Under the pieces are notes generated by a model. The model saw nothing but the letters and a program-made list of their open reading frames with translations, ran no database searches and was not told the origin of the DNA. The position numbers and the translations under genes were made by a program. Shown here piece by piece: positions 1,918 through 60,157 of a DNA stretch of 64,000 bases; the first letter of the stretch is position 1, and every line of letters begins with the position of its first letter. This DNA is from Bacteroidia bacterium. Its GTDB lineage: Bacteria > Bacteroidota > Bacteroidia > JABEUT01. The stretch covers positions 1,321 to 65,320 of the forward strand of contig JBKQUY010000025.1 of assembly GCA_052325425.1 (NCBI GenBank). Direction: 5' to 3'.

Positions 1918-1999
1918 TTTATTTTCACATTCTTTAGTATCACTGTTGCTCAATTTTAATAATTTTGACAACCCTTTAAGTAAAGGGACATAGATATTT

Positions 2000-2065: not shown

Positions 2066-2147
2066 TTTATTTTCACATTCTTTAGTATCACTGTTGCTCA
2101 ATTTTAATAATTTTGACAACCCTTTAAGTAAAGGGACATAGATATTT

Positions 2148-2224: not shown

Positions 2225-2243
2225 ACCATTAGATATTATAGCT

Positions 2244-2489
2244 ATGCCTTTTTATGTGTACATTCTCTATTCACAAAAACTCGATAAGTTCTACATTGGC
2301 CATACAAATAACATAGATAGAAGAATTATTGAACACGATAACAGAGAAAATTTAGGTACAAACGACTGGGTGCTCAAATATTCTGAACAATTTCTCACAA
2401 GGTCGCTGGCCATGAAAAGAGAATCGGAAATTAAAAGAAAAAAGCGTAGAACTTATTTGGAATGGCTTATTAATAATAAGCCAGATTAG
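2244..2489 (+). CDS. GIY-YIG nuclease family protein (81 aa, stand-alone URI domain)
   Basis: N-terminus YVYILYS...KFYIGHTNNIDRRIIEH is a canonical GIY-YIG motif. Sits immediately 3' of tRNA-Pro. Its stop codon abuts a tRNA 3' fragment. Confidence 0.8.
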   Translation: MPFYVYILYSQKLDKFYIGHTNNIDRRIIEHDNRENLGTNDWVLKYSEQFLTRSLAMKRESEIKRKKRRTYLEWLINNKPD

Positions 2490-2541
2490 CGCGTCCCGCA
2501 GTACTGCGGGAAGGTCGGCAGTTCGAATCTGCCTACCCTGA
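2488..2541 (+). repeat. tRNA 3' fragment (anticodon-palindrome + T arm + acceptor 3' strand)
   Basis: agcgcgtcccgcagtactgcgggaaggtcggcagttcgaatctgcctaccctga matches the palindromic anticodon version of copies 1/2 plus an intact T arm and acceptor 3' strand. The flank gacaaccattaga is duplicated after the intact tRNA (2221-2233) and here (2538-2550). Confidence 0.6.
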
Positions 2542-2606
2542 CAACCATTAGAAGGTAATTATTTACTTGTCGGAACTAAGTTAGAAAGTAAACTATATTT
2601 AAATTA

Positions 2607-19000: not shown

Positions 19001-20438
19001 GGCAAGTATTACAGCCGCCCCAGGCATCAGCACTACCTATACTGTTACAGGTACAAACGCATGCGGAGATAACCAGGCAATTGCAGCGGTGACGGTGAAT
19101 ACTACGCCGACAGTTGGCGTTTCTGCTTCATCTTCAACAATATGCCAGGGCAATTCATCAACACTTACTGCCAGTGGAGCAACAACCTATTCATGGTCAC
19201 CCGCAACCGGTTTAAACGTTTCGACAGGAGCAAGTGTAACCGCCAGTCCTGCTTCCACTACTACCTATACTTTAACCGGTACATCAAACGGTTGCTCCGA
19301 TGCGGCGACAATATCTTTAACCGTAAAACCGGCAACAGTAAACCCGGGGCCCGATACCAGTGTTAGCTGCGGTAGCAAATTGCAATTAAATGTAACCTGC
19401 AATCCACCCTCTCCAACCCTGGTGGTATGGTCTCCTTCTACTTATCTGAACAATTCCAATATACCTGACCCGGTATGCTCACTCACCGGCAGCGGCAATA
19501 TTACCTATACAGTAACTGCAGCGTTAAGTAACGGGTGTACTGCCAATGATACTATAACAGTGAGCCGCAAACCTGCGGATACTCATATAACCCTATGCGA
19601 AGTTTCGGCAGATACAGGTTCAAATTATAATATTATAGTTTGGGATACTGCAACCTTGAGGCATGCAGACAGCATAAGAATATATTATCTGAACAGTTCA
19701 TCGAAATGGGCTTGCCTCAGCGTGAGGCCATATAGGGGAAATGAGTATTATGTTGATTCTTTGAATAAACCCGATAAGGCTACTGTAAGATATAAATTAG
19801 TATCGGTTGATTCATGCGGAGATACCCTTTCAAGCCTCTGGCATAACACCATGTGGATACAAAATAATTCCGGTACATTTCAGTGGTCGGGTACCGGATA
19901 CCAGATGGAAGGTAATTCAGCGCCTGTAACAACATATATTTTATACCGCGATACGTTAAGTAATGGCCATTGGGATTCGATAAACTCAGTCAGCGGCACT
20001 CAAAATATTATGGCTGACCCTGATTATGCCAATTATCCTAAAGGCAGGTGGAGAGTTGTGGCTATATTAAATATCCCGGGTTGCCCATTGCCTGATTTAA
20101 GGCCCGATGCAATAAATAACACTACAACGCGAAGCAATACCCAGCACAATAACATTTTTACAGGTACATCAACCTTAGCTTCAACCCCAAATTCAATATC
20201 TGTTTATCCGAATCCTGCCGGCCAAACTTTGAATATTAAATTCAGTTATGCAAAAGCAGAGGATGCAAGGATAAGTATAGTTGATGTTACAGGAAGAGAA
20301 ATTTATTCAATTGAGAATTATCAAATTACCAAATCATCAAATCATCAAATTGACATTAGTGCTCTATCAACCGGAATATATTTTGTAAAGGTAGTAACCA
20401 ATACATCATCGCAGGTGGTGAAATTTGTGAAGTTGTAA
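16062..20438 (+). CDS. giant T9SS-secreted adhesin-like protein (Gly-rich N-domain + ~17 Cys-containing Ig-like repeats + T9SS C-terminal sorting domain)
   Basis: Signal peptide. Gly-rich N-terminal region (WTVPADVTQITITASGAAGA...GGGGG). Repeats of about 80 aa with C.G.S.TLTASG..Y.W...TTTYTVTG. C-terminus VYPNPAGQTLNIKF...GIYFVKVV is a type-A Por/T9SS CTD. Confidence 0.8.
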   Translation: MKNDLFLSALSRQIKTILAMTGFSVFTFSIACAQTNVSYSYTGSLQTWTVPADVTQITITASGAAGAYLSGGGGGSCNGGNGAVITNVTVTVVPGHTLNILVGGQPAAGGNASGGGGGTYIWDASNTSTPLVVAGGGGGSGYGASGGAPGSTTTTPTVGGGLGSGTAGTGGNGGTAGNGTGYACAGAGGAGFASSGSNGGTGSFVNASSPAAGGGICPIASTTPGAGGTSGCNGQAGGYGGGGGACFSGGGGGGYNGGAGGNTSNTWSTGGGGGGGSCVNGANPPSGSVAATNTGNGSVTISYVPTCTVSISPTSVTVCPGSSVTLTASGGSYYSWNGGSTTANASITVTPNTTTTYSVTGWDGSGCSDTATRTVIVNPAPVATLTMNPSSICSGSSTTLYAGESGSTAAPYTYTWQATSNPVPGTNTTNQASYSVSVSPTITDTYTLTVTDNNGCLGNSNVTITVYPNPVASLSASPNSICNGSSTTLTAGESGDNALPLSYQWSATANPPASNNNANVFSYTVSVSPTTTDAYSLTVTDANGCKDTISTKVIVNALPTITISPNPASICSGSSITLTASGGSYYSWNGGGTTSTPGLIVTPSTTTTYTVEGWNGNGCSNTVQSTVTVNSNPSLSVGSGISICTGNSGSLSASATGGKTPYSYMWLPGYIATSSPSVSPTSTTTYSVYVTDANGCKDNNADSTQVVTVNSTPTVAITPSPSNATICAGSSATLTASGGVTYLWNTGATTSSISVSPTINATYTVTGTNSEGCSSTATQSITINSLPSVSASATSLTICYGNSTTLTSSGAATYEWISPFGFLSSSQDQSVSPTSTTTYTVVGTSTQGCQGTQQTVTISVTPLPAVTVNPSPATVCLGNPVALSASGSASYTWSPSTGLNATTGASVSANPTAATTYTVTGSNSCGSHDTTVSVVLGLLPTVSASASPATICTGNSTNLTAGGATSYTWSPSSGLSVTTGASITAAPGISTTYTVTGTNACGDNQAIAAVTVNTTPTVGVSASSSTICQGNSSTLTASGATTYSWSPATGLNVSTGASVTASPASTTTYTLTGTSNGCSDAATISLTVKPATVNPGPDTSVSCGSKLQLNVTCNPPSPTLVVWSPSTYLNNSNIPDPVCSLTGSGNITYTVTAALSNGCTANDTITVSRKPADTHITLCEVSADTGSNYNIIVWDTATLRHADSIRIYYLNSSSKWACLSVRPYRGNEYYVDSLNKPDKATVRYKLVSVDSCGDTLSSLWHNTMWIQNNSGTFQWSGTGYQMEGNSAPVTTYILYRDTLSNGHWDSINSVSGTQNIMADPDYANYPKGRWRVVAILNIPGCPLPDLRPDAINNTTTRSNTQHNNIFTGTSTLASTPNSISVYPNPAGQTLNIKFSYAKAEDARISIVDVTGREIYSIENYQITKSSNHQIDISALSTGIYFVKVVTNTSSQVVKFVKL

Positions 20439-20718
20439 ATCCCGACATTTATCGTCGGGGAGTAAATCCAGATTAATTGTCGGAACAACAGGCATTGGTT
20501 TTGATTTGTTATTGCAGGGCGATAGCGGCTTATTTATCAGGCATTGCGGTGGAATGAATATTTGTTTTAAACTGACTGTCAGAGTCAATCTGTTTATTCC
20601 GATAAATATCAATCATATTTCGGCTAAAAAAGTTATTTCATTTTAGGGTAATTGTAAATAATAATATACATTTGATAATTAATACTTATCGCGGTATTGA
20701 AATTTTAAAACTATTACC

Positions 20719-23229
20719 ATGAAAAAAATTACATTGTTTTTTTTCCTGCTTATAGCCTGCAATGCTTTTGCCCAGGTAAACTCCATACCCAATGGTGAAT
20801 TTGAAAGCTGGACAAATCTTAACTGGATGGACCCTGTTAATTGGTGGTCCCTTAATGACACCTATGGCCCTAATGGACAGGGCAACTATACGAATACTGT
20901 TATAAGGAGTACTGATGCCTATCATGGCAAATATGCAGCACAATTGGAATCTATAAACTTTGGCCCTGACACTATTCCGGGTATGATTGGGTTGGGAATT
21001 GTTGGAGGAAGTCCGGTTGGGATTCCTATCAGCGAGGCTCCCACCGGAATAAGGCTATATTATACCTATAGCAGGACAGCACCCGACAGCGCTGCAATTG
21101 AGGTTGAATTTAAAAAAGCAGGCAGCGTTATTGGCATTTATTTATATAAAATATCGAACACAACTAACAGCTATCTCCTTTTTTCCCAAATGTTTTCTCC
21201 GGCTTTGTCGCAAACTCCTGATACCGTTTTATTTACAGCCTTTTCAACAACAAGATTGTTTTATTCAAAGGGATTTAAAAACGCGATTGGGTGGTGTTGG
21301 GCCCCGGGTAGCACATTTCAAATTGACAGTCTTTCTTTTACTGGCCTGGCAAGCCAACCTGCCGGTTTAAATGGCGATTTTGAACAATGGAATGCTGATA
21401 CAAACTGGATTGGCCCGGTTGATTGGAACGAACAAGAGGGATTCAGCTTAGCACGAACTACAGATGCCGTTTCGGGATTCGCAGCAGAATTAGGAACGAC
21501 ACTAACCAGTTGCACATCTTGTGTTGGACCGCAGTTCACAAAAATCAGAACAGGTAATGAAGGTGGTTCAGGTGATAATGGAGGTTATCCTTACACTAAC
21601 ACAATAGACACACTTGAGTTTTATTACAAATATGCCCCGTCATCAGGTAACCCCCTTGACTCAGGAGCAGTTTCTTTAGATTTTCATAACAGCACTGCTA
21701 ATAATCAATACTATATCATAACTCTTGGCGCTTCGGCTGTTTATAAGAAAGTAGATTATCCAATATCTATATCCGGCTTTACACCAGATAGTGTTGCAGT
21801 AGGCATTCAATCATCTTACTGTAATTCCTGCAGCAGCTTACCAATGGGTGATACCGGTTCTGTTATCAAAGTAGATAATATTCATTTCAAATCACAACAA
21901 CATCTTTCTGTATCACCTGCTGTTGCTTCTATCTGTGCAGGTACTGGAGGCGTTACTCTTGTTGCCGACGGAGAAACAAGTTATACCTGGGCGCCGGCTA
22001 CCGGCCTTAGCTGCACAAATTGTTCGGACCCTGTCGCTAACCCCTTATCTACAACTACCTATACTGTTACTGGCACTACAGGAACTTCACACAGCATAGT
22101 AAATGTAACAGTAACTATTAAGCAGTCCAGTGTGAAAATACCGCGCGACACATCTGTTTCCTGCGGAAAAAGCCTGCAGTTAAACGCAGTCTGCAATCCT
22201 TTATCACCAACAAGCGTAGTATGGAGCCCTTCGACTTATTTAAGCAGTACCAGCATAGTAAACCCTATTTGCACACCGACCTCTACTGTAACTTATACTT
22301 TAACAGTTGACTTAAATAACGGTTGCGTGGTTACTGATACTGTTACCGTGCAGAATAACCCTTTGGCAAGTATTTGTATAGTAACGGTAGATACCGGGTC
22401 AGACCATAATATAATAGTCTGGGACAACACCGGGTTAGCCCACATAGACAGTTTTAAAATCTATTACCAGAATTCCGCTTCGCTTTGGCAATTAATCAAA
22501 GCAGTGCCATTTTCCGCGCCCAATTATATAATTGATAGCACGCCTATAAATGATCCCAATGCCAATACGGTAAGGTATTGTTTAACAGCCAAAGATTCAT
22601 GCGGCGGTGAAGAACCAATTTCATCAAGCTCCTGGCAAAACACCCCATTTATTATTGGCAATGGGTCAGGAACTTTTAGCTGGGGTGGAACCGCGTATTT
22701 AGTTGAGGGTTCAGCACAGCCTGTGCGAACATACCGTTTGTTCAGGGACACATTAAGAAATGGCCATTGGCAGGCAATAGATTCGGTAGCTGGGAACCAA
22801 TACCAAATGACGGACCCGAATTATGCAATGTATCCCAAAGCAAGGTATCGTGTTGATGGGGAATTATTTAACGGTGGCTGCCCTTATAATGGTGATTTAA
22901 GGCCTTATGCCATCAACAATACAACAACCCGCAGCAATACGCAACATAATACAATAATAGGGGCAGTAAAACAAATTGTAAATCCTGCTGATGCTATATC
23001 AGTATATCCTAATCCTGCCGGGCAAACTTTGAATATTAAATTCAGTTATGCAAAAGCAGAGGATGCAAGGATAAGCATAGTGGATGTTACAGGAAGGGAA
23101 GTGTATTCTGAATTGTCAATGGTGAATGGTGAATTGTCAATGAATATAGCTAACTTATCAACCGGAATATATTTTGTTAGGGTAGTAACCAATACATCAT
23201 CGCAGGTGGTGAAATTTGTGAAGTTGTAA
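20719..23229 (+). CDS. T9SS-secreted protein, paralog of the preceding gene (shared C-terminal ~350 aa region + T9SS CTD)
   Basis: Signal peptide. The C-terminal half aligns with 16062..20438 (SVSCGKSLQLNAVCNPLSP... vs SVSCGSKLQLNVTCNPPSP...). The final about 90 nt and the post-stop hairpin are near-identical at the DNA level. Confidence 0.8.
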   Translation: MKKITLFFFLLIACNAFAQVNSIPNGEFESWTNLNWMDPVNWWSLNDTYGPNGQGNYTNTVIRSTDAYHGKYAAQLESINFGPDTIPGMIGLGIVGGSPVGIPISEAPTGIRLYYTYSRTAPDSAAIEVEFKKAGSVIGIYLYKISNTTNSYLLFSQMFSPALSQTPDTVLFTAFSTTRLFYSKGFKNAIGWCWAPGSTFQIDSLSFTGLASQPAGLNGDFEQWNADTNWIGPVDWNEQEGFSLARTTDAVSGFAAELGTTLTSCTSCVGPQFTKIRTGNEGGSGDNGGYPYTNTIDTLEFYYKYAPSSGNPLDSGAVSLDFHNSTANNQYYIITLGASAVYKKVDYPISISGFTPDSVAVGIQSSYCNSCSSLPMGDTGSVIKVDNIHFKSQQHLSVSPAVASICAGTGGVTLVADGETSYTWAPATGLSCTNCSDPVANPLSTTTYTVTGTTGTSHSIVNVTVTIKQSSVKIPRDTSVSCGKSLQLNAVCNPLSPTSVVWSPSTYLSSTSIVNPICTPTSTVTYTLTVDLNNGCVVTDTVTVQNNPLASICIVTVDTGSDHNIIVWDNTGLAHIDSFKIYYQNSASLWQLIKAVPFSAPNYIIDSTPINDPNANTVRYCLTAKDSCGGEEPISSSSWQNTPFIIGNGSGTFSWGGTAYLVEGSAQPVRTYRLFRDTLRNGHWQAIDSVAGNQYQMTDPNYAMYPKARYRVDGELFNGGCPYNGDLRPYAINNTTTRSNTQHNTIIGAVKQIVNPADAISVYPNPAGQTLNIKFSYAKAEDARISIVDVTGREVYSELSMVNGELSMNIANLSTGIYFVRVVTNTSSQVVKFVKL

Positions 23230-23669
23230 ATCCCGACATTTATCGTCGGGGAATAGACATTGATTTGATAATTTGATGATGTGCTGATTTGATGATTACC
23301 AAATCCCTCCTGTTCTTTTTCGCGCTCGTTAATAATATTTCAACTTTTTGTGCATTCCCAGCAATTCTACGGGATTAGCAAATGAATAGTTGATAAAATG
23401 TTTTATGATTTGCTTAATATTTTAAATAAAATGTTTATATTTGCAGTGAATAAACCTGTGGTTTATTCAAATTAAGAATTAAGAGTGAAGAACTAAGAAC
23501 AAAAAATCACTATAGTATTCATTTAAACTCTGTGAAACTCAGCAGGCTGTTTGTTCTGCGACCTCTGCGTGAAATGCTTTTAACCAATCTCTCCGAGAGG
23601 GGGGGAGGGGCAGGGTAGACATAACAAAATGAGTAAACTATTGATAATCAAATAAATGGAAAAAAGCCT

Positions 23670-23835
23670 TATGCCAAATAGTGCCAAAAGATGCCAAATC
23701 ATGCCAAAAAGCGCCAAGTGTTAAAATAAAGATGCCAAAGAATGCCAAATTTTAAGTTAAAAGTGAATAGTGAAAAACAAAAAAGAAAGCGGGGGGACAT
23801 AAAATGCCAATGTCATGACAAAAGATGCCAAAATC
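23670..23835. repeat. cluster of ~10 direct nATGCCAAA 9-mer repeats (iteron-like)
   Basis: tatgccaaa, agtgccaaa, gatgccaaa, catgccaaa, agcgccaag, gatgccaaa, aatgccaaa, aatgccaat, catgacaaa, gatgccaaa spaced about 10-11 bp apart. Confidence 0.7.
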
Positions 23836-24288
23836 AATTACGAATGAAAAAACCTTTTTGGACTCCCGATAAAACATGATGTCGGGATTGCAGTGTTTTT
23901 AGGGAAGCAACTTTGCGTAAACCTTTGCGCACTTTGCGAGAAAATGAAATTATGAATAAAAATTTCTGTGAATCTGTGGCTGAAATGAAAAATAATTCGT
24001 GTAATTCGTGTCTCCAAAACATAATAAACTCATTGCAAAAGTATGCAAAAAGTATGCAATTATAAAACATTGTAAATGAGGGTTTTGCAAAAAGCCACCC
24101 CCTCAAAATAGACAAAAAAAGACAAGAATGGACAAAAATTGCATATTTCCCCAATAAACAGAAAAAGGGGTATATGACAATTTAACATTTTTTGTCAGAC
24201 AAAAATCACCAAAACATGACACGAAAGCTTACATTTGGCATCCCAAAAAAATGGCACGGAATTTGAAAGAAGGGAATCGAACAAAAAA

Positions 24289-24394
24289 CAATTTGATAAT
24301 TTGATGATTTGGAGATTTGATGATGAAAAAGGCAATATATATTGAGCTATTTGTTATTCAATTACCAAATTATCAAACTACCAAATCATCAAAT
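24289..24394. promoter_or_regulatory. ~105-bp palindromic (TTTGATGAT)n ... (ATCAAAT)n element ending 30 bp upstream of groES start; candidate heat-shock operator/5'-UTR structure
   Basis: Left arm caatttgataatttgatgatttggagatttgatgatg. Centre aaaaaggcaat.... Right arm ccaaattatcaaactaccaaatcatcaaatt (reverse complement of the left-arm family). Confidence 0.5.
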
Positions 24395-24424
24395 TAAATT
24401 AGTAACCTTTAAATCTAAAAAATC

Positions 24425-24712
24425 ATGGCAAAAAAAGTAAATTTTGTTCCTCAGGGCGACCGGGTACTGGTTGAAGCTGCTGAGGCAGAGAGCAAAACAA
24501 CAGGTGGTATTATTATACCTGATACAGCAAAAGAAAAACCCCAAAAGGGAATTGTAGTAGCCGTAGGCCCGGGTAAGAAAAAAGATGAGCCTGTAACCCT
24601 GAAAGTAGGTGATAAAGTGCTTTATGGCAAGTATTCGGGCACTGAAATTGGCATTGATGGGAAAGAATACCTCATCATGCGCCAGGATGATGTTTTAGGA
24701 TATTTCGAATAA
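24425..24712 (+). CDS. groES: co-chaperonin GroES
   Basis: 95 aa. [29 protein letters not shown]...YGKYSGTEI matches Hsp10. Confidence 0.95.
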
Positions 24713-24719
24713 AAACAAA

Positions 24720-24807
24720 CCAATTTGATGATTTGATGATGTGCCAATTTGATGATAAAAAGGCATTTTCCATTATCAAATTATCAAATGGACTAATTAT
24801 CAAATTA
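24720..24807. promoter_or_regulatory. second copy of the palindromic TTTGATGAT/ATCAAAT element, ending 28 bp upstream of groEL start
   Basis: ccaatttgatgatttgatgatgtgccaatttgatgat, then aaaaaggcatt, then atcaaattatcaaatggactaattatcaaatt. Same architecture and same centre as the groES copy. Confidence 0.5.
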
Positions 24808-24816
24808 AATCAATAA

Positions 24817-26469
<1,653 letters not shown>

Positions 26470-41116: not shown

Positions 41117-41261
41117 CTCTTCATATTGCCCTGTCTAACATACGTATCCGCAACAAAGGTAAAAAGTCTGAGCAGAAAGGCCTGGTTAAATCTATTGCTG
41201 TTTTCATTCCGAATAATATTTTCATTGAGCTATTGATAAAATTTGTACTACCTTTGTCCTG

Positions 41262-41335
41262 ACTTTAGGGGTGCTGTTAAGCTGAGATTATACCCTCAAG
41301 ACCTGATGCAGGTAATGCTGCCGAAGGGAAAAAGC
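41262..41335 (+). promoter_or_regulatory. TPP (thiamine pyrophosphate) riboswitch
   Basis: ttaGGGGTGCtgttaaGCTGAGAttataCCCtcaagACCTGATgcaGGTAATgctgccgaagGGAA. Contains the conserved CUGAGA, ACCUGAU and GGUAAUACC-like elements of the THI-box. Upstream of thiS-thiC. Confidence 0.85.
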
Positions 41336-41419
41336 GAGTTCCATCTCAGTTTATTATTCATTCCTGGTTACTTTAGCTAATGGCCAATGGCTGATAGCTG
41401 ATGGTTAATACATAAAAAC

Positions 41420-41667: not shown

Positions 41668-43584
<1,917 letters not shown>

Positions 43585-43641: not shown

Positions 43642-44355
43642 ATGAGTAATATCGAACAAGGAATATCGAATAATGAAATAAACAACCAGAGTGAAAACTT
43701 CGGCGTTCAGCATTCAATGTTCAATATTCGATATTCTGCCCTTAAATTAGTTGTTATATCGCCCGAAAGTACCGTTGAAAATGAAACGGAAATGGTTAAT
43801 GCCCTGTTCAAAGAAGGATTAGCATATTTTCATTTGCGTAAACCTGGTTTCACTGCTAAAGAGCAGGAGCAATATCTTTCTGAAATTGAACCAAGGTACT
43901 TGAAAAATATCACTCTGCATCAACACCACAGTATTACTTTGAATAATCAAATATCCAGGCTTCATTTTAAGGAGCATGAGAGAGAAAGCATGGATATTTC
44001 AAAGAAGAAAGCAGGTATGCTTTTTTCAAGTTCAATACATGATACTGAAAATCTCTTCTCTTGGGGAGATTCAGAGGGGCAGTCTTCTTTATGGGATTAT
44101 GTTTTCCTTGGCCCTGTATATAGCAGCATATCAAAACCGGGTTATAGAAATCAAGCTCTTGAGAATATTGTATTGGAAAAGAGAGATGGAACACCTAAAA
44201 TAATTGCAATCGGAGGAATTGATTCATCCAATGCAGAGAATGTATTAAAAAGAGGTTTTGATGGTATTGCGGTATTGGGCGCTATCTGGAATGCCACCAA
44301 CCCCCCGGTGGGAACTTTGAGCACATTTAAAACATTACAGGCAATATGCAATTAA
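43642..44355 (+). CDS. thiamine-phosphate synthase-family protein (ThiE/TenI-like, divergent)
   Basis: TIM-barrel ThiE-like motifs (YFHLRKP..., IAIGGI). Second ThiE-family gene in the operon, so possibly TenI-like. Confidence 0.6.
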   Translation: MSNIEQGISNNEINNQSENFGVQHSMFNIRYSALKLVVISPESTVENETEMVNALFKEGLAYFHLRKPGFTAKEQEQYLSEIEPRYLKNITLHQHHSITLNNQISRLHFKEHERESMDISKKKAGMLFSSSIHDTENLFSWGDSEGQSSLWDYVFLGPVYSSISKPGYRNQALENIVLEKRDGTPKIIAIGGIDSSNAENVLKRGFDGIAVLGAIWNATNPPVGTLSTFKTLQAICN

Positions 44356-45134
44356 ACAGGCCCATAGTGTTAAGTATTGCAGGATACGACCCATCAGCAG
44401 GAGCAGGGCTGCTGGCTGATATTAAAACCTTTGAGCAGCATAAAGTTTATGGTATGGGAATAATTTCATCTCTGACTTTTCAGACAGAAAATGAGTTTTT
44501 TGATGTAAAATGGATAAATGAAAAGGAGATTATTTCTCAATTAGAGAAGTATTTAAAACACTTTCAGATTAAGGTTGTAAAATTCGGGTTGATGAAAAAC
44601 TGGCGGATTTTAAATAACATAACAGGTTTAATAAAAGGCTTTAATGAAAAAATAAAAATTATTGTTGACCCGGTATTAAAGCCATCGGCAGGCAATAACT
44701 CATTTTTAGCGGGAGATAAAAAAATGATATTATCTGTATTGAATAAAATTGACCTGCTTACGCCAAACTATGATGAGGCAGTATTTTTGGGTAATAATAA
44801 AGATGGAATTGACGGGGCAAAAGAATTATCAAAATATTGCAATATATTTTTAAAAGGTGGGCATAATCCTAAAAAACCCGGTACCGATTATTTATTTACC
44901 TGTAATTGTAGAGACGCCATGCATGGCGTCTCTACAATGCATGGCGTTTCTACCATGACCCCCAATTCAACAAAAATATTTCCCAAACATGGTTCCGGCT
45001 GCGTGCTATCGGCTGCCATAACTGCAAATCTTGCTTTAGGATTTGAACTGCATGAAGCATGTAAAAATGCCAAGCAATACACTGAAAAATTTTTGAATAG
45101 CAATAAATCTTTATTGGGATACCATGTACAATAG
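44346..45134 (+). CDS. thiD: hydroxymethylpyrimidine/phosphomethylpyrimidine kinase ThiD (carries an in-frame palindromic insertion)
   Basis: VLSIAGYDPSAGAGLLADIKTF, ...HGSGCVLSAAI. About 12 extra residues (CRDAMHGVSTMHGVSTM) relative to canonical ThiD between the LFT and HG(T/S)GC motifs. Confidence 0.85.
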   Translation: MQLNRPIVLSIAGYDPSAGAGLLADIKTFEQHKVYGMGIISSLTFQTENEFFDVKWINEKEIISQLEKYLKHFQIKVVKFGLMKNWRILNNITGLIKGFNEKIKIIVDPVLKPSAGNNSFLAGDKKMILSVLNKIDLLTPNYDEAVFLGNNKDGIDGAKELSKYCNIFLKGGHNPKKPGTDYLFTCNCRDAMHGVSTMHGVSTMTPNSTKIFPKHGSGCVLSAAITANLALGFELHEACKNAKQYTEKFLNSNKSLLGYHVQ

Positions 45135-45813
45135 ATTACAATACATTTCGCAGGGTTCAACTATAAATGAGCATATCCGCAATATAAATCTTGCTTTGGA
45201 TAATGGATGCAGGTGGATACAATTACGAATTAAAGCCCCCCTTCCCCCCGAAAGGGGGATACCTGAAGGAGCAATATTTGTCCCCTCTTTGGGGGGTAGG
45301 GAGGCTGCACTTAAAGTAAAGCAATTATGCGCCTCTTATAAAGCAACATTTATTGTTAATGATTATATAGATATTGCAAAAGAGGCCGATGCTGATGGAG
45401 TCCACTTAGGGTTACAAGATAGTTCTGTTGCCAATGCAAGAGAAGTATTAGGCAGCAAGAAAATAATCGGGGGAAGCGCCAATACTTACTCCGATTGCCT
45501 TATGCGGATAAAAGAGGGCTGTAATTATATAGGCTTAGGACCTTTCAGATATACAACTACAAAAGCAAAACTCAGCCCCATACTGGGAACTGAAGGCTTC
45601 AGGAAAATCATGTCGCAGTTATCTCTTGATAAAAATGCCCCGCCGGTTTATGCAATTGGCGGCATAGTGGCAGAGGACGTTGAAGAGTTGATGGATACGG
45701 GTATATATGGGATTGCTGTTTCCGGCGTTATAACCAATGCCACAGATAAGAAACAAATTATAAAGTCATTAAATTTTAAACTGAACCAAAAGCATGTTAA
45801 CCATAGCCGATAA
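45124..45813 (+). CDS. thiE: thiamine-phosphate synthase ThiE (with GC-rich in-frame insertion)
   Basis: IQLRIK...FIVNDY...GVHLGLQD...GGIV motifs. About 13 extra residues between LRIK and FIVNDY encoded by GC-rich hairpin-forming DNA. Confidence 0.85.
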
Positions 45814-46588
45814 ATCATTTACATCAAGGTTATTTTTAGGTACCGGCAAATTTTCTTCCATGCAGGTAATGGCCGATGCAGTGCTGGCATCGGGTTCCGA
45901 ACTGGTAACTCTTGCATTAAAAAGAGTAGATACCAAAAGTCTCACCTCAAGGGGAGATTTAGAGGGGCATGCCCAGGATGACATGGTAAACTATTTAAAC
46001 CACCCTCATATACAATTGCTGCCCAATACTTCGGGAGTGAGAAATGCCAAAGAAGCTGTTTTTGCCGCGCATTTGGCCCAAGAGGCGCTTGGAACAAAGT
46101 GGCTGAAATTAGAAATCCATCCTGACCCGCGCTACCTTATGCCGGATGGGGTTGAGACGCTTAAAGCAACAGAAGAATTGGCAAAGGAAGGCTTTATCAT
46201 TTTGCCTTACATACATGCCGACCCTGTTTTATGCAAACGGCTTGAAGACGCCGGGGCCGCGGCTGTAATGCCTCTTGGCTCACCTATAGGAAGCAATAAG
46301 GGGTTAAAGACAATTGACTTTTTAGAAATTATTATAGAACAAAGTAATGTGCCGGTAATTGTTGACGCGGGTATAGGCGCACCGTCAGACGCAGCCAAAG
46401 CTATGGAAATAGGCGCCGCCGGAGTTTTAGTAAATACCGCAATTGCAGTGTCTCGTAATCCGGTAGAAATGGCATGTGCATTTAAGCAAGCTGTTGAAGC
46501 CGGAAGAACAGCCTACCTGGCCGGATTGGGAAAAATTTCAGCTACGGCATATGCATCGAGCCCGTTGACTGCTTTTCTTGATGAATAA
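45794..46588 (+). CDS. thiG: thiazole synthase ThiG
   Basis: [21 protein letters not shown]-terminus. 264 aa. Confidence 0.88.
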
Positions 46589-49892: not shown

Positions 49893-49977
49893 GTGTAGTT
49901 AAATGTAATATTTCAAAGGTATTCTTTTTAAAGTATGATTCGACATTAATTTGATTTTTATTTTATCTTTACTCGCA

Positions 49978-52116
49978 ATGAAGCGAATTTGCAGAGTCAT
50001 ATTAATTTTTTTCTTTTTTTCTTTGAATAATTTTGCGCAGAAACACGCTATTGATTCCCTGCAAAATATTTTAAGAACTGAGAAAGAGGACACCAGTAAA
50101 GTAAATACGTTGAATACGCTGGCTGACAGGCTGCAAAGAAAGGGTAACTATGACAGTTCTATAGCTTGTGCTTACAGTGCAGAGGTTCTGGCTGAAAAAC
50201 TGGGCTTTAATAAAGGTTTAGCGAATGCTTTATTAGGTTCGGGAATTGCAAACTGGCGCAAAGGAAATTATTCCAAAGCAATGGAATATGACATTAAGGC
50301 TTTGGCAATAAACAAGGAAATTGGTAATAAAAATGGCATGGCGGCCAATTTAGCCAATCTTGCCAGTGTTTGCCGTAACCAGGGCAATTTCCCAAAAGCG
50401 CTGGAATACGATTTCAAGGCATTGGATATAAACCAGGAAACCGGAAATGAGAATGGCATTGCGATGATATTGGGGAATATTGGAAATATTTACGGAGGCC
50501 AGGGCAATTTCCCAAAAGCGCTTGAATATTTTCAGAAAGCATTGGTTATAAACCAGGGATTAGGGAATAAAGTTTTTATTGCCCTCAATTTTGGCAATAT
50601 TGGAAATGTATATGAGGAACAGGGCAATTACCCTATGGCGCTCGAATATGATGCTAAAGCTTTGGCTATTGAACAGGAAATGGGAGACAATTCGGGCATT
50701 GCGAGGAACCTTAGCAATATGGGCGTAATTTATTATGACGAAGGTAATTATTCAATGGCGCAGGAATATTATTTTAAAGCGCTGGCAATTGAAAAGGGAA
50801 TAGGAAATAAGGATGGCGTTGCCCTTAACCTGGGTAACATTGGTATTATTTATACCAAACAGAAAAGATATAAGCAGGCCATCGCTTACCTTGATTCATC
50901 TCTCCGGTTTTCTGAAGGCACAGGAGATAAGGATGTAATAAAGAGCGCTTACAAAGGCTTGGCTGAATTAGACAGTGCTACAGGTAATTTTAAAACTGCG
51001 TATGATGATTATAAAAAGTTTATCGCTTACCGCGACAGTTTAATTAATGAAGCGAATACCAAAAGAACTGTCCAGGCAGAGATGAATTACGAATTTGAAC
51101 AAAAACAGGCCGTTGAGAAAGCAGAACAAGATAAAAAAGATGCCATAGCTGAGGCAGAAAAGCGAAAACAGAAAATTATTATCTGGTCAGTAGTAAGCGG
51201 GTTGCTGTTGGTTGTTGTTTTCGCGGGGTTTATTTACCGTTCTTTACGCATAACCCGTAAACAAAAGAACTTGATTGAAAGGCAGCGGGAGAAAGTTGAA
51301 ACCCAGAAAACACTTATCGAACAGCAAAAGGCATTAGTAGAAGAAAAGAATAAAAATATCCTGGACTCGATTAATTACGCTAAAAGCCTGCAGGATGCCA
51401 TATTACCACCAATAAGCCTTATTACAAAATATCTTCCTGAATCCTTTGTGCTATATAAGCCTAAAGACATAGTGGCAGGTGATTTCTATTGGATGGAACG
51501 GGTAGAGACGCCATGCATGGCGTCTCTGCTGATTGCTGCGGCAGATTGCACAGGGCATGGTGTACCCGGGGCCCTTGTGAGTGTGGTATGTTCCAATGCC
51601 CTTAACAGAACTGTAAAGGAGTTTAAGATTACCGAACCGGGAAAAATATTGGATAAAGTAAGGGAACTTGTCCTTGAAACATTTGAAAAAAGCGAAAATA
51701 ATGTACAGGATGGAATGGATATTTCCTTAGCCTCCCTTAGTCTCTCCGAGGGAGGGATACAAATACAATGGAGCGGAGCATACAATCCTTTGTTGTATGT
51801 GCATAATAATGAAATTAAAGAGATAGCGCCTGATAAGCAGCCTATTGGCAAAACAGACAATCCTAAACCGTTTATTACAAATTTGTTACATGTAAATAAA
51901 GGCGATACATTGTATTTATTTACTGATGGCTATGCTGACCAGTTCGGAGGCCCGAAAGGAAAGAAGTTTAATTACAAACAGCTCCAGGAAAAGTTATTAT
52001 CTATAAGCCATCAGCCTTTAGCAGAACAAAAACAGGCACTTGAAAAAGCGTTTGAAAAATGGAAAGGCGAATTGGAGCAGGTGGACGATGTATTAATTAT
52101 TGGCATAAGAGTTTAG
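49978..52116 (+). CDS. TPR-repeat, single-pass membrane sensor with C-terminal PP2C/SpoIIE-family serine phosphatase domain (carries the 24-bp palindromic insertion)
   Basis: Signal peptide (MKRICRVILIFFFFSLNNFAQ). About 9 TPR units (GN.......Y..KAL.I). TM helix IIIWSVVSGLLLVVVFAGFIY. Coiled-coil. PP2C-like ...GDFYW....DCTGHGVPGAL...TDGYADQ. Confidence 0.8.
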   Translation: MKRICRVILIFFFFSLNNFAQKHAIDSLQNILRTEKEDTSKVNTLNTLADRLQRKGNYDSSIACAYSAEVLAEKLGFNKGLANALLGSGIANWRKGNYSKAMEYDIKALAINKEIGNKNGMAANLANLASVCRNQGNFPKALEYDFKALDINQETGNENGIAMILGNIGNIYGGQGNFPKALEYFQKALVINQGLGNKVFIALNFGNIGNVYEEQGNYPMALEYDAKALAIEQEMGDNSGIARNLSNMGVIYYDEGNYSMAQEYYFKALAIEKGIGNKDGVALNLGNIGIIYTKQKRYKQAIAYLDSSLRFSEGTGDKDVIKSAYKGLAELDSATGNFKTAYDDYKKFIAYRDSLINEANTKRTVQAEMNYEFEQKQAVEKAEQDKKDAIAEAEKRKQKIIIWSVVSGLLLVVVFAGFIYRSLRITRKQKNLIERQREKVETQKTLIEQQKALVEEKNKNILDSINYAKSLQDAILPPISLITKYLPESFVLYKPKDIVAGDFYWMERVETPCMASLLIAAADCTGHGVPGALVSVVCSNALNRTVKEFKITEPGKILDKVRELVLETFEKSENNVQDGMDISLASLSLSEGGIQIQWSGAYNPLLYVHNNEIKEIAPDKQPIGKTDNPKPFITNLLHVNKGDTLYLFTDGYADQFGGPKGKKFNYKQLQEKLLSISHQPLAEQKQALEKAFEKWKGELEQVDDVLIIGIRV

Positions 52117-57595: not shown

Positions 57596-60157
57596 TTGCA
57601 TAGGGAGAATTTTATATATAAATTGAAGGTTTCCAGGTCATTGAACCATTGGCTAACAGCAGTTTTTTTGTTGCTGATACCTTTAATGGCGTTTTCTCAG
57701 TCATCGGTTACTTTGAATTGTAGAATAACCGAGAATGGCAAAAAACTTTCCGGTGTTGTGGTATCAATTTACGCTAATGGAAGTCTTCTTAGAACTGTCA
57801 ATACTGATAATGGAAAGTGTGATATAGATCTTGAACTGGGTGTGGATTATATTATTGCATTTACTAAACCCGGTTACATTACAAAACGCCTGGAGTTCAA
57901 TACAAAAAATGTACCTCCTGACAGGGCAAAAGAAGGATTTGGACAATACCCTATTGAAACTGAATTATTTCCGGAAATACCCGGGACCGACATTGATAAA
58001 ATACTTCAGCAACCGGTGGGTAAGTTTTCATATGACAAAAGCGCAAACAAGGCATTAGGAGATTTTGTATCTGATGAAGCTTATCATCAATCCATTCAAA
58101 GTATGTTGGATAAGATAGAAGCGGCAAGGAAAGCAGCAGAAGAAAAAGAGAAAGTGATTGACGCGCAATACAAAAAAATTATTGCTAAAGCAGATGGAGA
58201 GTTTGGCGCTAAGGATTATGCAAATGCTAAAACTGATTACCAGGCAGCTTCGCAATTGAAACCCGAGGAACAATATCCAAAAGACCAGCTTGCAGCAATA
58301 GACAAAGCCATAAACCAGGCCAGCGCTGATGCGGCAAGAAAAGCACAACAGCAAAAAACCGCAGACTCATTAGCTGCAGCCAAAAAAGCGGCGGATGCAA
58401 AAGCATCGGCGGATGCGGCGAAAAAAGCACAACAGCAAAAAACTGTGGACTCATTAGCGGCGGTTAAGAAAGCGGCAGCAGACAAAGCTGCAGCAGATGC
58501 GGCAAGAAAAGCTCAACAGCAAAAAACTGCGGACTCATTAGCGGCAGCTAAGAAAGCACAACAGCAAAGAACTGCGGACTCATTGGCCGCCGTGAAGAAA
58601 GCGGCGGCGGACAAAGCAGCAGCAGATGCAGCAAGAAAAGCACAACAGCAAAAAACTGCGGACTCATTGGCCACGGTTAAGAAAGCGGCAGCAGACAAAG
58701 CCGCAGCAGATGCAGCGAGAAAAGCACAACAGCAAAAAACTGCTGATTCATTAGCGGCGGTTAAGAAAGCGGCAGCGGACAAAGCGGCAGCAGATGCTGC
58801 AAGAAAAGCTCAGCAGCAAAAAATTGCTGATTCATTAGCGGCAGCTAAGAAAGCACAACAGCAAAGAACCGCTGACTCGCTAGCTGCTGCTAAGAAAGCA
58901 GCAGCGGACAAAGCTACAGCAGATGCGGCAAGAAAAACGCAACAGCAAAAAACAGCGGACTCATTAGCGGCGGTTAAGAAAGCTCAGCAGCAAAGAACCG
59001 CTGACTCACTGGCCGCTGCCAGGAAAGCGGCAGCGGACAAAGCGGCAGCAGATGCAGCCAGAAAAGCGCAACAGCAAAAAACTGCTGATTCATTAGCGGC
59101 AGCTAAGAAAGCTCAACAGCAAAGAACCGCTGACTCGCTAGCCGCTGCTAAGAAAGCGGCAGCGGACAAAGCTACAGCAGATGCGGCAAGAAAAGCGCAA
59201 CAGCAAAAAACTGCTGATTCATTGGCAGCGGTTAAGAAAGCTCAGCAGCAAAGAACCGCTGACTCACTCGCTGCTGCCAGGAAAGCGGCAGCAGACAAAG
59301 CCATAGCAGATGCGGCAAGGAAGGCACAACAGCAAAAAATTGCTGATTCATTAGCGGCAGCTAAGAAAGCTCAGCAGCAAAGAACCGCTGACTCGCTAGC
59401 CGCTGCTAAGAAAGCGGCAGCAGACAAAGCGGCGGCAGATGCTGCCAGGAAGGCACAACAGCAGAGAACAGCCGACTCGTTAGCAGGAATAAAAAAAGCA
59501 GCCGATAAGGCTCGTAATGATAAACTGGCAGAACTAAAAATACAAGCCAAGTACGATTCTCTTATTAGAATAGCAGATGCCGCTTTCAAAAAGAGTAATT
59601 ATTCTGTCGCAAAATCCAACTATTCTTCAGCCTCTGTAGTTAAACCAGGAGAATCATACCCTAAGAATCAGATAGATTCCATTGCAAAGTTGCAATCTGC
59701 TCAAAGTGCTCAAAATGACAAGTATAATGCAATCATATCCAAAGCAAATCAAAATTATTTTACTAAAAACTATAAGGTCGCTCTCACTCTGTACCAACAA
59801 GCTTCTCAATTAGAGCCAACTGCAAATTATCCTAAACAACAAATAGCCAAGATTCAATCAATTATATCAGACCAGCAAAGTCCGTCAAATAACCAAACGC
59901 AACCACCACCCCCACCTAAAGATATTCCTTCAGATTCTTCGGCAGTGGATTCTTTAGCGCTCAAATACAAACCCGGTGTTACGGAAGAGCACATTTATGA
60001 ACCGGGTTGTGAGGTTACCCGCCGCATTGTTGTAAAAAATGGACATGGCTGGGTTTATTTCCGGAAAGTATATAATTGGGGACAAACCTATTACTACAAG
60101 GGTGAACAACCTGTTACAGAAGACACGTGGAATGTTGAAACACAAAACTCAAATTAA
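57596..60157 (+). CDS. secreted protein with carboxypeptidase-regulatory-like N-domain, TPR-like motifs and a ~390-aa array of tandem Ala/Lys/Gln-rich repeats
   Basis: Signal/TM segment. About 13 copies of ADAARKAQQQ(K/R)TADSLAA(A/V)KKA[AADKAA] units. Confidence 0.6.
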   Translation: MHRENFIYKLKVSRSLNHWLTAVFLLLIPLMAFSQSSVTLNCRITENGKKLSGVVVSIYANGSLLRTVNTDNGKCDIDLELGVDYIIAFTKPGYITKRLEFNTKNVPPDRAKEGFGQYPIETELFPEIPGTDIDKILQQPVGKFSYDKSANKALGDFVSDEAYHQSIQSMLDKIEAARKAAEEKEKVIDAQYKKIIAKADGEFGAKDYANAKTDYQAASQLKPEEQYPKDQLAAIDKAINQASADAARKAQQQKTADSLAAAKKAADAKASADAAKKAQQQKTVDSLAAVKKAAADKAAADAARKAQQQKTADSLAAAKKAQQQRTADSLAAVKKAAADKAAADAARKAQQQKTADSLATVKKAAADKAAADAARKAQQQKTADSLAAVKKAAADKAAADAARKAQQQKIADSLAAAKKAQQQRTADSLAAAKKAAADKATADAARKTQQQKTADSLAAVKKAQQQRTADSLAAARKAAADKAAADAARKAQQQKTADSLAAAKKAQQQRTADSLAAAKKAAADKATADAARKAQQQKTADSLAAVKKAQQQRTADSLAAARKAAADKAIADAARKAQQQKIADSLAAAKKAQQQRTADSLAAAKKAAADKAAADAARKAQQQRTADSLAGIKKAADKARNDKLAELKIQAKYDSLIRIADAAFKKSNYSVAKSNYSSASVVKPGESYPKNQIDSIAKLQSAQSAQNDKYNAIISKANQNYFTKNYKVALTLYQQASQLEPTANYPKQQIAKIQSIISDQQSPSNNQTQPPPPPKDIPSDSSAVDSLALKYKPGVTEEHIYEPGCEVTRRIVVKNGHGWVYFRKVYNWGQTYYYKGEQPVTEDTWNVETQNSN
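58321..59480 (+). repeat. in-frame tandem DNA repeat (42-bp subunits, 84/126-bp units) inside 57596..60157
   Basis: Repeated gcagatgcggcaagaaaagcacaacagcaaaaaactgcggactcattagcggc... with minor variants. Confidence 0.75.

What the first reader, a model, noticed from the sequence alone, without database searches (positions are those of the whole stretch)
44907..44955. 30-bp perfect GC-rich palindrome inserted in-frame in thiD, plus an 18-bp tandem duplication
TGTAGAGACGCCATG|CATGGCGTCTCTACA (44907-44936) is a perfect palindrome in an AT-rich gene. It is followed by a second atgcatggcgtttctacc half-copy. It encodes CRDAMHGVSTMHGVSTM and makes ThiD about 12 residues longer than canonical enzymes between the LFT and HG(T/S)GC motifs. 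The identical 24-bp core recurs in an unrelated gene (51504-51527). This looks like a short palindromic element that inserts into coding sequence while preserving frame. That is unusual for bacterial REP/MITE repeats, which avoid CDS. Candidates are a footprint of a site-specific nuclease/recombinase, an intein/homing-endonuclease scar, or a CDS-tolerant palindromic repeat family (cf. cyanobacterial HIP1).
Basis: seen in the sequence. Interest (0 to 1): 0.75.

Follow-up and report, generated by a model that had tools for sequence, protein, structure and literature searches.

The report
REP hairpin inserted in-frame in thiD
The GC-rich palindrome inside thiD is a copy of a small mobile hairpin repeat (a "double-foot" REP element, linked to a RAYT-type transposase family) that is common in Bacteroidota; here it sits in-frame in a surface loop of two genes, which is real but already documented for this class.

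Summary
A 34-bp perfect palindrome (44905-44938) lies inside thiD, and its core recurs in a TPR/SpoIIE phosphatase gene (51502-51527). Chance expects no such copies. Orthologues lack the segment: thiD carries exactly 12 extra codons, and the phosphatase gains a net 4.

The core is a 28-bp palindrome, GTAGAGACGCCATGCATGGCGTCTCTAC. Its 20-bp centre occurs at least 155 times in 119 genome stretches, almost all Bacteroidota or related phyla. Most copies are intergenic.

In 27 of those stretches the element sits in-frame inside a roughly 190-aa HUH/Tyr protein. That protein carries the motifs NH[FI]H, WQ and YIxNNP. This matches TnpA_REP subclass 2.4 (RAYT group 4) and its "double-foot" REPs, described by Quentin et al. 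2018. That paper also reports REPs inside the transposase gene. Di Nocera et al. 2013 documented REPs inside unrelated genes.

The finding is therefore a new member of a known kind, not a new class.

Two details remain open:
- The "18-bp half copy" is mostly native thiD codons, and the empty site already resembled the element arm (13/16).
- Many of these RAYT genes are embedded in type I restriction-modification operons.

The parts
44908..44935 (.). 28-bp REP core GTAGAGACGCCATGCATGGCGTCTCTAC. It is a 'double-foot' hairpin with GTAG at the 5' end and CTAC at the 3' end.
   Evidence: Identical to the consensus of 155 copies in 119 loci. As single-stranded DNA it folds into a 12-bp stem with a 4-nt loop, dG -12.9 kcal/mol, z -6.6.
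44905..44938 (.). Full 34-bp perfect palindrome: the REP core plus a 3-bp ATT/AAT extension on each side.
   Evidence: The hairpin in context has dG -20.2 kcal/mol, z -7.25. Extensions of 3 bp or more occur in 10 of 70 perfect copies elsewhere, against 1.1 expected.
44907..44942 (+). The 36 nt (codons 188-199, CRDAMHGVSTMH) that are absent from the closest orthologue. This is the insertion proper; its boundaries are ambiguous by 2 nt.
   Evidence: Protein and DNA alignments with P0001/L120. In the AlphaFold model residues 189-198 have pLDDT below 50, lying between strands 181-184 and 201-204.
44937..44954 (+). The 'half copy' ATGCATGGCGTTTCTACC. Its GGCGTTTCTACC part is the native thiD codons G200-T203.
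   Evidence: Compared with L120 (AAT GGG GTT TCG ACA ATA ATG) the differences are synonymous only. The L120 empty site matches the element arm plus flank at 13 of 16 positions. VSTM forms the native beta strand.
44346..45134 (+). thiD (hydroxymethylpyrimidine/phosphomethylpyrimidine kinase), the host gene. It is intact.
   Evidence: Pfam PF08543 at 1.3e-44 and TIGR00097 at 2.6e-43. The invariant columns, including KHGSGC, are conserved. The model has mean pLDDT 82.9 and pTM 0.86.
51502..51529 (.). Second REP copy, GTAGAGACGCCATGCATGGCGTCTCTGC. It matches the consensus at 27 of 28 positions and is read as VETPCMASL.
   Evidence: The hairpin has dG -12 kcal/mol, z -4.0. It replaces the GDT turn of a beta hairpin, a net gain of 4 aa relative to 40 relatives.
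49951..52116 (+). TPR + SpoIIE/PP2C phosphatase gene hosting the second copy.
   Evidence: Pfam TPR_12 at 7.8e-47 and SpoIIE at 3e-18.

Best explanation
Both palindromes are copies of a non-autonomous REP (repetitive extragenic palindrome) family of the 'double-foot' type. The element is a 28-bp GC-rich hairpin with the guide tetranucleotide GTAG at its 5' foot and CTAC at its 3' foot.

The family belongs with a RAYT/TnpA_REP HUH-tyrosine enzyme of subclass 2.4 (Bertels group 4), which is common in Bacteroidota. That enzyme typically carries a copy of the same REP in-frame inside its own gene.

Inferred mechanism, by analogy with E. coli TnpA_REP and the IS200/IS605 family: the enzyme recognises the folded single-stranded hairpin plus GTAG, and nicks and rejoins single-stranded DNA at replication forks. 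New copies arise this way, and/or by template switching onto existing copies.

Most copies land between genes. The palindrome is open in two of its three frames on either strand (RDAMHGVS and VETPCMASL; the third contains TAG). A copy that adds a multiple of 3 nt within a surface loop can therefore survive selection.

In thiD, 36 nt were added at the turn of the beta hairpin that precedes the KHGSGC motif. In the phosphatase, a hairpin turn was replaced, with a net gain of 12 nt. Both genes stay intact.

Shown here: family membership, insertion status, loop location, and linkage of the family to the RAYT gene. Inferred: the catalytic mobilisation itself, and that the source genome encodes such a RAYT.
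For: Repeat family:
The flanks are unrelated and the GTAG...CTAC feet are conserved.
- Among variant copies, 18 of 22 keep the pairing through double changes: CG/CG, CA/TG, GG/CC.
- The hairpins are stable as single-stranded DNA.

Mostly extragenic:
- Only 28% of copies lie in stop-free spans of at least 200 codons, against 79% of random positions.

Link to a RAYT:
- 27 of 119 stretches share one protein of roughly 190-220 aa that contains the element in frame.
- It hits NCBIfam REP_Tyr_transpos at 1.6e-17 and E. coli TnpA_REP, PDB 4er8, at 1.1e-4, with the HUH and WQxRF...YIxxNP motifs aligned.
- At least 5693 relatives were found, some named RayT by JGI.
- 100 of the best 120 relatives carry a DAMH[GCR]VS-like peptide between HUH and FGPQSKN.

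Literature:
- Subclass 2.4 has the motifs NH[IFV]H / WQ / YIxNNP, double-foot REPs, and in-frame REPs inside tnpA_REP, and is abundant in Bacteroidetes (PMC6006769).
- Intragenic REPs occur in unrelated genes (PMC3733652).

Insertion status and loop location.
Against: - No RAYT homologue lies in the 64-kb window, and the source genome could not be retrieved. A cognate enzyme in this organism is therefore unproven.
- Only two copies are seen in the window, and both are intragenic. This is atypical for a family that is mostly intergenic.
- The RAYT-like protein scores below NCBIfam's equivalog cut-off (63.7 against 80 bits) and has no Pfam hit.
- RAYT-driven REP transposition has, to my knowledge, never been demonstrated in vivo for any family.
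- The similarity of the thiD empty site to the element arm (13/16) fits homology-primed copying at least as well as classical cut-and-paste.
Confidence: 0.85

Rival explanations
1. Homology-primed copying rather than transposition. A nascent or broken strand ending in a native sequence that happens to resemble one REP arm anneals to a REP array elsewhere (arm + ATGCAT + full REP). It copies that array, then returns by microhomology. The RAYT is not directly needed for this event.
For: - The thiD empty site in the closest orthologue matches the arm plus flank at 13 of 16 positions (P about 4e-6 to 3e-5 per position).
- The 'half copy' is native codons and forms the native strand.
- The insert is exactly 36 nt, which is 2 x 18.
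- An unrelated locus (L041) carries the same 'arm + full REP' architecture, 96% identical over 51 nt.
- 20% of copies have an extra arm within 40 nt, against 0.35% in the background.
- In the phosphatase, native codons were replaced rather than simply interrupted.
Against: - There is only one clear case. The phosphatase empty sites show only weak similarity to the element ends.
- Arm duplications can also arise afterwards by slippage on the hairpin.
- This model does not explain the tight linkage of the family to RAYT genes.
Confidence: 0.3
2. Scar of an intein, homing endonuclease or site-specific nuclease acting on thiD.
For: None beyond the in-frame nature of the insert and the restriction-like centre (CCATGCATGG).
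Against: - The same 28-mer occurs in more than 100 unrelated, mostly intergenic places.
- The insert is 12 aa with no intein blocks.
- No endonuclease ORF is adjacent.
- Compensatory variants point to a hairpin, not a protein-coding remnant.
Confidence: 0.02
3. A selected over-represented short palindrome (HIP1-like, or linked to restriction-modification or DNA uptake) rather than a mobile hairpin.
For: - The sequence is strongly conserved across orders.
- The associated RAYT genes often sit in type I restriction-modification operons.
Against: - It is 28 bp long with low copy number: two copies in 64 kb.
- It occurs in tandem clusters with variable spacers.
- It has the GTAG foot and compensatory stem changes typical of REPs.
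- HIP1 is an 8-mer present about once per kb (general knowledge).
Confidence: 0.05
4. Chance palindromes, or an assembly or sequencing artefact.
For: None.
Against: - Zero matches are expected in shuffles of the window.
- The element is present in isolate genomes and long-read assemblies, including Emticicia, Taibaiella koreensis, Pollutibacter soli, Adhaeribacter soli, Flavobacterium succinicans and 4-6 Mb contigs.
- The reading frames are preserved.
Confidence: 0.01

Closest known systems
'Double-foot' REP sequences associated with TnpA_REP subclass 2.4 / RAYT group 4 (Quentin et al. 2018, PMC6006769; Bertels et al. 2017, PMC5581495)
   Same: - It has a 5' GT[AG]G foot and a 3' C[TC]AC foot around a GC-rich, fully paired stem.
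- It is of low copy number.
- It is found in Bacteroidota.
[quoted passage not shown]
- The enzyme carries the motifs NH[IFV]H, WQ and YIxNNP.
   Different: - The exact 28-mer was not found in the searchable literature.
- I did not find a report of one identical REP sequence shared across several orders and phyla of the FCB group (Bacteroidota and allied phyla), and I saw none in these papers.
- No cognate RAYT was seen in this window.
Intragenic GTAG/CGTC REPs (Di Nocera et al. 2013, PMC3733652)
   Same: Short REP hairpins inserted in frame in unrelated, functional genes, as single or grouped units, encoding short extra peptides.
   Different: That survey found GTAG REPs in Proteobacteria, Cyanobacteria, Chloroflexi and the PVC group (Planctomycetes, Verrucomicrobia, Chlamydiales), and only CGTC repeats in Bacteroidetes. 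thiD and SpoIIE-type phosphatases are not named as hosts in the passages I read.
Rickettsia palindromic elements (RPE), as cited in PMC3733652
   Same: Palindromic repeats inserted in frame into protein-coding genes and tolerated in surface regions.
   Different: - RPE-1 elements are much longer (about 100-150 bp; my own knowledge).
- They are restricted to Rickettsia.
- They have no linked RAYT gene.
- The sequences are unrelated.
E. coli REP/BIME with TnpA_REP (PDB 4er8)
   Same: A GTAG guide at the foot of a GC-rich hairpin, and a homologous HUH/Y enzyme.
   Different: - E. coli REPs are imperfect, have a single foot and number in the hundreds.
- They are extragenic.
- The enzyme belongs to subclass 2.2, with motifs DHLH / WE / YIHYNP.

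Membership tests
REP, double-foot type (Quentin 2018 rules) | GT[AG]G tetranucleotide 0-2 nt 5' of the hairpin foot | tested here: met
   GTAG sits directly at the foot in both window copies and in most of the 155 copies elsewhere. The full GTAG...CTAC pair is present in 70 of them.
REP, double-foot type (Quentin 2018 rules) | Reverse-complement foot C[TC]AC at the 3' end | tested here: met
   The thiD copy has CTAC. The phosphatase copy has CTGC, a one-base deviation.
REP, double-foot type (Quentin 2018 rules) | Fully paired GC-rich stem of 7-20 nt with a short loop | tested here: met
   The stem after the foot is 8-10 bp, the loop is 0-4 nt, and stem GC is at least 50%. Compensatory variants maintain the pairing.
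REP, double-foot type (Quentin 2018 rules) | Repeated within a genome, mostly extragenic | tested here: inconclusive
   The window has 2 copies in 64 kb, and both are intragenic. The source genome is unavailable. In other genomes there are multiple loci per assembly, for example at least 9 in a Ginsengibacter metagenome-assembled genome (MAG) and at least 10 in Cytophagales YX1bin7, and the copies are mostly outside long ORFs.
REP, double-foot type (Quentin 2018 rules) | A cognate tnpA_REP (RAYT) gene in the same genome, flanked by or containing the REP | not testable with these tools
   None is present in the window, and the whole genome could not be obtained. In other genomes 27 of 119 REP-bearing stretches contain the gene with the REP inside it.
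TnpA_REP subclass 2.4 / RAYT group 4 (applies to the associated protein) | HuH = NH[IFV]H, W motif = WQ, Y motif = YIxNNP; about 194 aa | tested here: met
   The protein has MPNHFH/NHIH, WQxRFHDHIIR and YIxNNP, with lengths of 176-262 aa. It matches NF047646 at 1.6e-17 and PDB 4er8 at 1.1e-4.
TnpA_REP subclass 2.4 / RAYT group 4 (applies to the associated protein) | A variable insertion between beta3 (HuH) and alphaC made of in-frame REP sequence | tested here: met
   100 of 120 relatives carry DAMH[GCR]VS-like peptides in this linker. The DNA copies lie inside the ORFs in the loci.
MITE | 70-300 bp element with terminal inverted repeats and a target-site duplication | tested here: not met
   The element is 28 bp and the insert is 36 nt. 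There is no duplication beyond a 2-nt boundary ambiguity.
Rickettsia RPE | Roughly 100-150 bp palindromic element of Rickettsia with a family-specific sequence | tested here: not met
   The length and sequence differ, and the hosts are Bacteroidota or other FCB-group phyla.
HIP1-type hyper-abundant octamer | An 8-bp palindrome at roughly kb-scale density throughout the genome, coding regions included | tested here: not met
   The unit is 28 bp, there are two copies in 64 kb, and the family is depleted in long ORFs.
Intein / homing-endonuclease footprint | Intein splicing blocks or an endonuclease ORF at or near the site; occurrence tied to one host gene | tested here: not met
   The insert is 12 aa with no such motifs, and there is no nuclease ORF nearby. 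The element occurs in more than 100 unrelated contexts.

The most novel reading that the evidence does not exclude
New REP copies of this family may be placed by homology to their own arm. Either the RAYT or a template-switching polymerase would use arm-like native sequences as entry points. This would explain the thiD site (empty site 13/16 identical to arm plus flank), the frequent extra arms, and the palindromes that extend into unique flanks.

Separately, subclass-2.4 RAYT genes embedded between hsdM, hsdS and hsdR may have a role tied to type I restriction-modification (defence-island function or regulation), rather than being merely domesticated transposases.
Probability: 0.15. Interest if true: 0.6.

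Novelty: new member of a known kind. Interest (0 to 1): 0.35.

Why it matters
This adds a clean, datable example of a REP hairpin entering two essential-type genes. An empty site is available in an 80%-identical orthologue, which is rare material for working out how REPs actually move, a process still unproven in vivo.

It also shows that one 28-bp REP sequence is shared almost unchanged across several orders of Bacteroidota and allied phyla, always linked to one RAYT subclass that carries the REP inside its own gene.

For annotation, peptides such as RDAMHGVST and VETPCMASL in Bacteroidota proteins are REP-derived loop insertions, not functional motifs.

Tried and rejected
- Retrieving the source contig or organism by exact-protein look-up failed for ThiD and ThiC.
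- A metagenome scan with the thiD/REP junction found nothing.
- tblastn of RAYT-like proteins against the window gave only the REP-encoded peptides, so there is no RAYT gene there.
- Pfam gave no hit for the RAYT-like protein, and PADLOC gave no hit.
- A full-text search for the element sequence found 0 papers.
- The viral collection holds a single contig with the element, so it is not phage-borne as a rule.
- I looked for arm similarity at the phosphatase empty sites and found it weak and inconclusive.
- The other in-CDS repeat of the window (42059, 44051, 45939) is not the same family. It has no match in the 119 loci.
- A search for literature on RAYT genes within type I restriction-modification operons returned nothing relevant.

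Full report
**1. The observation**

The sequence is as described. The perfect palindrome is 34 bp, not 30: 44905-44938, ATTGTAGAGACGCCATGCATGGCGTCTCTACAAT. It is the longest perfect palindrome in the window by 10 bp. It is followed by ATGCATGGCGTTTCTACC at 44937-44954.

It lies in frame in ORF 44346-45134 (+). That ORF is a phosphomethylpyrimidine kinase (Pfam PF08543 at 1.3e-44; TIGR00097 at 2.6e-43).

The 24-bp core recurs exactly at 51504-51527, and with the preceding GT it spans 26 bp from 51502. This copy lies inside a TPR + SpoIIE phosphatase ORF, 49951-52116. Shuffles of the window give 0.00 expected matches.

The window is 39.6% G+C. It carries a TPP riboswitch at 41257-41347, directly upstream of the thiamine genes (thiC, a TenI-like ORF, thiD, thiE, thiG).

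**2. Both copies are insertions**

- *thiD, protein level.* 120 ThiD relatives are almost all 249-252 aa, against 262 aa here. In an alignment with 13 of them, the window alone has 12 extra residues, CRDAMHGVSTMH. They lie between DYLF and the KHGSGC motif.
- *thiD, DNA level.* The closest relative (P0001, 80% identical; DNA in L120, 82% identical) shows a clean 36-nt difference.
- *thiD, structure.* An AlphaFold model (mean pLDDT 82.9, pTM 0.86) places residues 189-198 (RDAMHGVSTM) in a low-confidence loop with pLDDT below 50. The loop joins strands 181-184 (DYLF) and 201-204 (VSTM), so the insert extends the turn of a beta hairpin. All invariant ThiD columns are intact.
- *Phosphatase.* 40 relatives read [23 protein letters not shown] where the window reads [27 protein letters not shown]. 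That is a net gain of 4 residues at a hairpin turn. Several other relatives carry different, longer inserts in the same turn.

**3. What the element is**

I estimate about one would be expected by chance. These stretches hold 155 copies.

The hosts are almost all Bacteroidota:
- Chitinophagaceae, Saprospiraceae, Cytophagales, Bacteroidales and Flavobacteriales.
- Isolates include Emticicia, Taibaiella koreensis, Pollutibacter soli, Adhaeribacter soli and Flavobacterium succinicans.
- A few belong to allied phyla: Ignavibacteria, Balneolia, Calditrichota, Fibrobacteria and Neomarinimicrobiota.
- A few bins carry labels from unrelated phyla.

The flanks are unrelated. What is conserved is a 28-bp palindrome, GTAG-AGACGCCATGCATGGCGTCT-CTAC, which is perfect in 70 copies.

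Further properties of the family:
- *Clustering.* Copies often sit in tandem clusters with 33-56 bp spacing.
- *Hairpin stability.* As single-stranded DNA the core forms a 12-bp stem with a 4-nt loop (dG -12.9 kcal/mol, z -6.6). The thiD copy in context reaches -20.2 kcal/mol (z -7.25).
- *Compensatory changes.* Among copies that differ at the two stem positions next to the ATGCAT centre, 18 of 22 changed both sides (CG/CG, CA/TG, GG/CC). The hairpin itself is therefore what is maintained.
- *Location.* Only 28% of copies lie in a stop-free span of at least 200 codons, against 79% of random positions in the same loci. The family is mainly intergenic, with an intragenic minority.
- *Reading frames.* The palindrome reads VETPCMASL or RDAMHGVS in two frames on either strand and has TAG in the third. 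The two window copies use one open frame each.

**4. The linked enzyme**

Clustering all ORFs of the 119 stretches gave one dominant family: 27 stretches share a protein of roughly 190-220 aa. A single-copy 0.6-kb gene would be expected in well under one of 119 random 8-kb blocks; that expectation is my estimate.

The protein has these motifs: MxDKFQNKYRIPSxRLxxWDY, YFITICT, MPNHFHxII (the HUH motif), FGPQSKN, WQxRFHDHIIR and YIxNNP (the catalytic Tyr motif).
- It matches NCBIfam REP_Tyr_transpos at 1.6e-17. The score of 63.7 bits is below the equivalog cut-off of 80.
- It matches E. coli TnpA_REP (PDB 4er8) at 1.1e-4, with the HUH and W/Y motifs aligned.
- It has no Pfam hit.

In every one of these loci the REP lies inside the ORF, in frame. 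Most often it sits in the linker after the HUH strand, and sometimes after YFGEI.

The large protein collection holds at least 5693 relatives at E <= 1e-10, some labelled 'REP element-mobilizing transposase RayT' by JGI. Of the best 120, 100 carry a DAMH[GCR]VS-like peptide in that linker. The C and R variants correspond to the compensated hairpins GACGCAATGCATTGCGTC and GACGCGATGCATCGCGTC.

**5. Comparison with the literature**

Quentin et al. 2018 (PMC6006769) define TnpA_REP subclass 2.4, which equals RAYT group 4 of Bertels et al. 2017. Their description includes:
- the motifs NH[IFV]H, WQ and YIxNNP, and a mean length of 194 aa;
- abundance in Cyanobacteria and Bacteroidetes;
- 'double foot' REPs, with 5' GT[AG]G and 3' C[TC]AC;
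- as 'a remarkable and unique feature', REP sequences inserted within the tnpA_REP genes, between HuH and Y, without disrupting the frame.

Every one of these features was met here (see the membership table).

Di Nocera et al. 2013 (PMC3733652) had already listed REPs inside unrelated genes in several species, and equated some with Rickettsia RPEs. Bertels et al. 2017 (PMC5581495) found only low-abundance repeats around group 4 genes. That fits two copies in 64 kb.

The kind of element, its enzyme, and its ability to sit in frame within genes are therefore all known. The exact 28-mer was not found in the searchable literature. I also saw no report of its near-identity across orders and phyla.

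**6. How it most likely works**

*Shown:* family membership, hairpin conservation, linkage of the family to a RAYT subclass, the insertion status of both window copies, and their location in loops.

*Inferred from the E. coli TnpA_REP and IS200/IS605 paradigm:* the enzyme binds the folded single-stranded hairpin with its GTAG guide, and cleaves and rejoins single-stranded DNA at replication forks. Copies that fall into genes survive only if they add a multiple of three bases, use one of the open frames, and land in a tolerant loop.

The cognate RAYT of this organism was not seen. There is none in the window, and the source genome could not be retrieved.

**7. A detail that does not fit simple cut-and-paste**

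Removing codons 188-199 from the window leaves AAT GGC GTT TCT ACC ATG. The orthologue has AAT GGG GTT TCG ACA ATA ATG. Apart from one missing codon, the differences are synonymous. VSTM also forms the native strand in the model.

It follows that the empty site already resembled the element: ATGGGGTTTCGACAAT against ATGGCGTCTCTACAAT, 13 of 16 positions, P about 4e-6 to 3e-5 per position.

Several other observations point the same way:
- The inserted 36 nt equal two 18-nt arm units.
- An unrelated Ginsengibacter locus (L041) has the same 'arm + ATGCAT + full REP' layout, 96% identical over 51 nt.
- 29 of 147 copies have an extra arm-like 14-mer within 40 nt, against 35 of 10031 background bins.
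- In 10 of 70 perfect copies the palindrome continues at least 3 bp into unique flanks, where 1.1 are expected. In 6 it continues at least 6 bp, where 0.02 are expected.

These facts suggest arm-homology-primed copying or targeting. This rests on one clear site, however. The phosphatase empty sites show only weak similarity to the element ends.

**8. Alternatives rejected**

- *Chance or artefact:*.
- *Intein or homing-endonuclease scar:* the element is mostly intergenic, has no such motifs, and has no adjacent nuclease ORF.
- *HIP1-like octamer:* the length, the copy number and the compensatory stem changes all differ.
- *MITE or RPE:* the size differs and there is no target duplication.

**9. 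Verdict**

It is, however, a member of an already described class. Interest is moderate to low (0.35).

The value lies in three points: the clean empty site, the phylum-wide conservation of one REP sequence, and two side observations. Those are the arm-like target and the RAYT genes inside type I restriction-modification operons.

Noticed in passing
window 42059-42089 (thiC), 44051-44081 (TenI-like ORF 43642-44355), 45939-45969 (thiG): A second in-CDS repeat family of about 31 nt (GTCTCRCCTCAAGGRGAGATTTAGAGGGGCA). All three copies are on the + strand and in the same frame, reading S(R/W)(R/G)D(L/S)EG(Q/H), in three different thiamine genes. In ThiG it is an insertion of about 10 aa relative to solved ThiG structures. 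It has no match in the 119 REP loci.
   Followed up: partly
window 45232-45311 (thiE ORF 45124-45813): A GC-rich stretch encoding [22 protein letters not shown], with small hairpins (CCCCCGAAAGGGGG; CCCCTCTTTGGGGGG). It looks like a further in-frame repeat insertion in the same operon.
   Followed up: no
L009, L026, L029, L039, L053, L062, L074, L094, L109, L116; L125-L128: 10 of the 27 RAYT-like genes in the REP loci lie inside or directly beside type I restriction-modification genes (hsdR, hsdM, hsdS confirmed by Pfam). An independent look-up (P0300) shows hsdM-RAYT-hsdS-PDDEXK_3-hsdR with abutting or overlapping gene ends. Two other look-ups were in housekeeping contexts. There were no PADLOC hits and no relevant literature was found.
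   Followed up: partly
SpoIIE relatives P0125, P0131, P0134, P0145, P0155, P0158 (same loop as window 51502-51527): The same beta-hairpin turn carries other, unrelated inserts of 6-30 aa in other genomes (motifs such as PLPxGEG and IPPLEGG). This loop is a recurrent landing site for several repeat families.
   Followed up: partly
L039, L026, L029 (hsdR/hsdM ORFs): REP-derived peptides (VETPSMA..., RRDAMHGVST, KTQCIASL) also occur in frame inside the neighbouring restriction-modification genes. This suggests local spread from the RAYT gene.
   Followed up: no
L086 6438-6465, L063, L076, L098, L110: Some REP copies sit at the centre of much longer palindromes whose outer arms are unique sequence. 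One example is AAAAAACGTC-REP-GACGTTTTTT, which looks like a bidirectional terminator.
   Followed up: partly
window 1797-2552: Tandem 148-nt repeats made of tRNA-like fragments surround a single intact tRNA-Pro(CGG) at 2148-2223. Rfam at gathering threshold called only the tRNA at 34840.
   Followed up: partly
window 20093-20464 vs 22893-23255, and 20317-24833: Duplicated segments 2.8 kb apart (80-97% identical) lie at the ends of two neighbouring large repeat-rich ORFs. They are followed by AT-rich ATTTGATGAT-type direct and inverted repeats in the intergenic DNA.
   Followed up: no
window 58116-59527: A long in-frame tandem array (129/84/45-nt periodicities) encodes an Ala/Lys-rich repeat.
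   Followed up: no
L134/L135 (IMGVR_UViG_3300020050_012305): This is the only viral contig of the IMG/VR collection that carries the REP centre. It has three copies.
   Followed up: no
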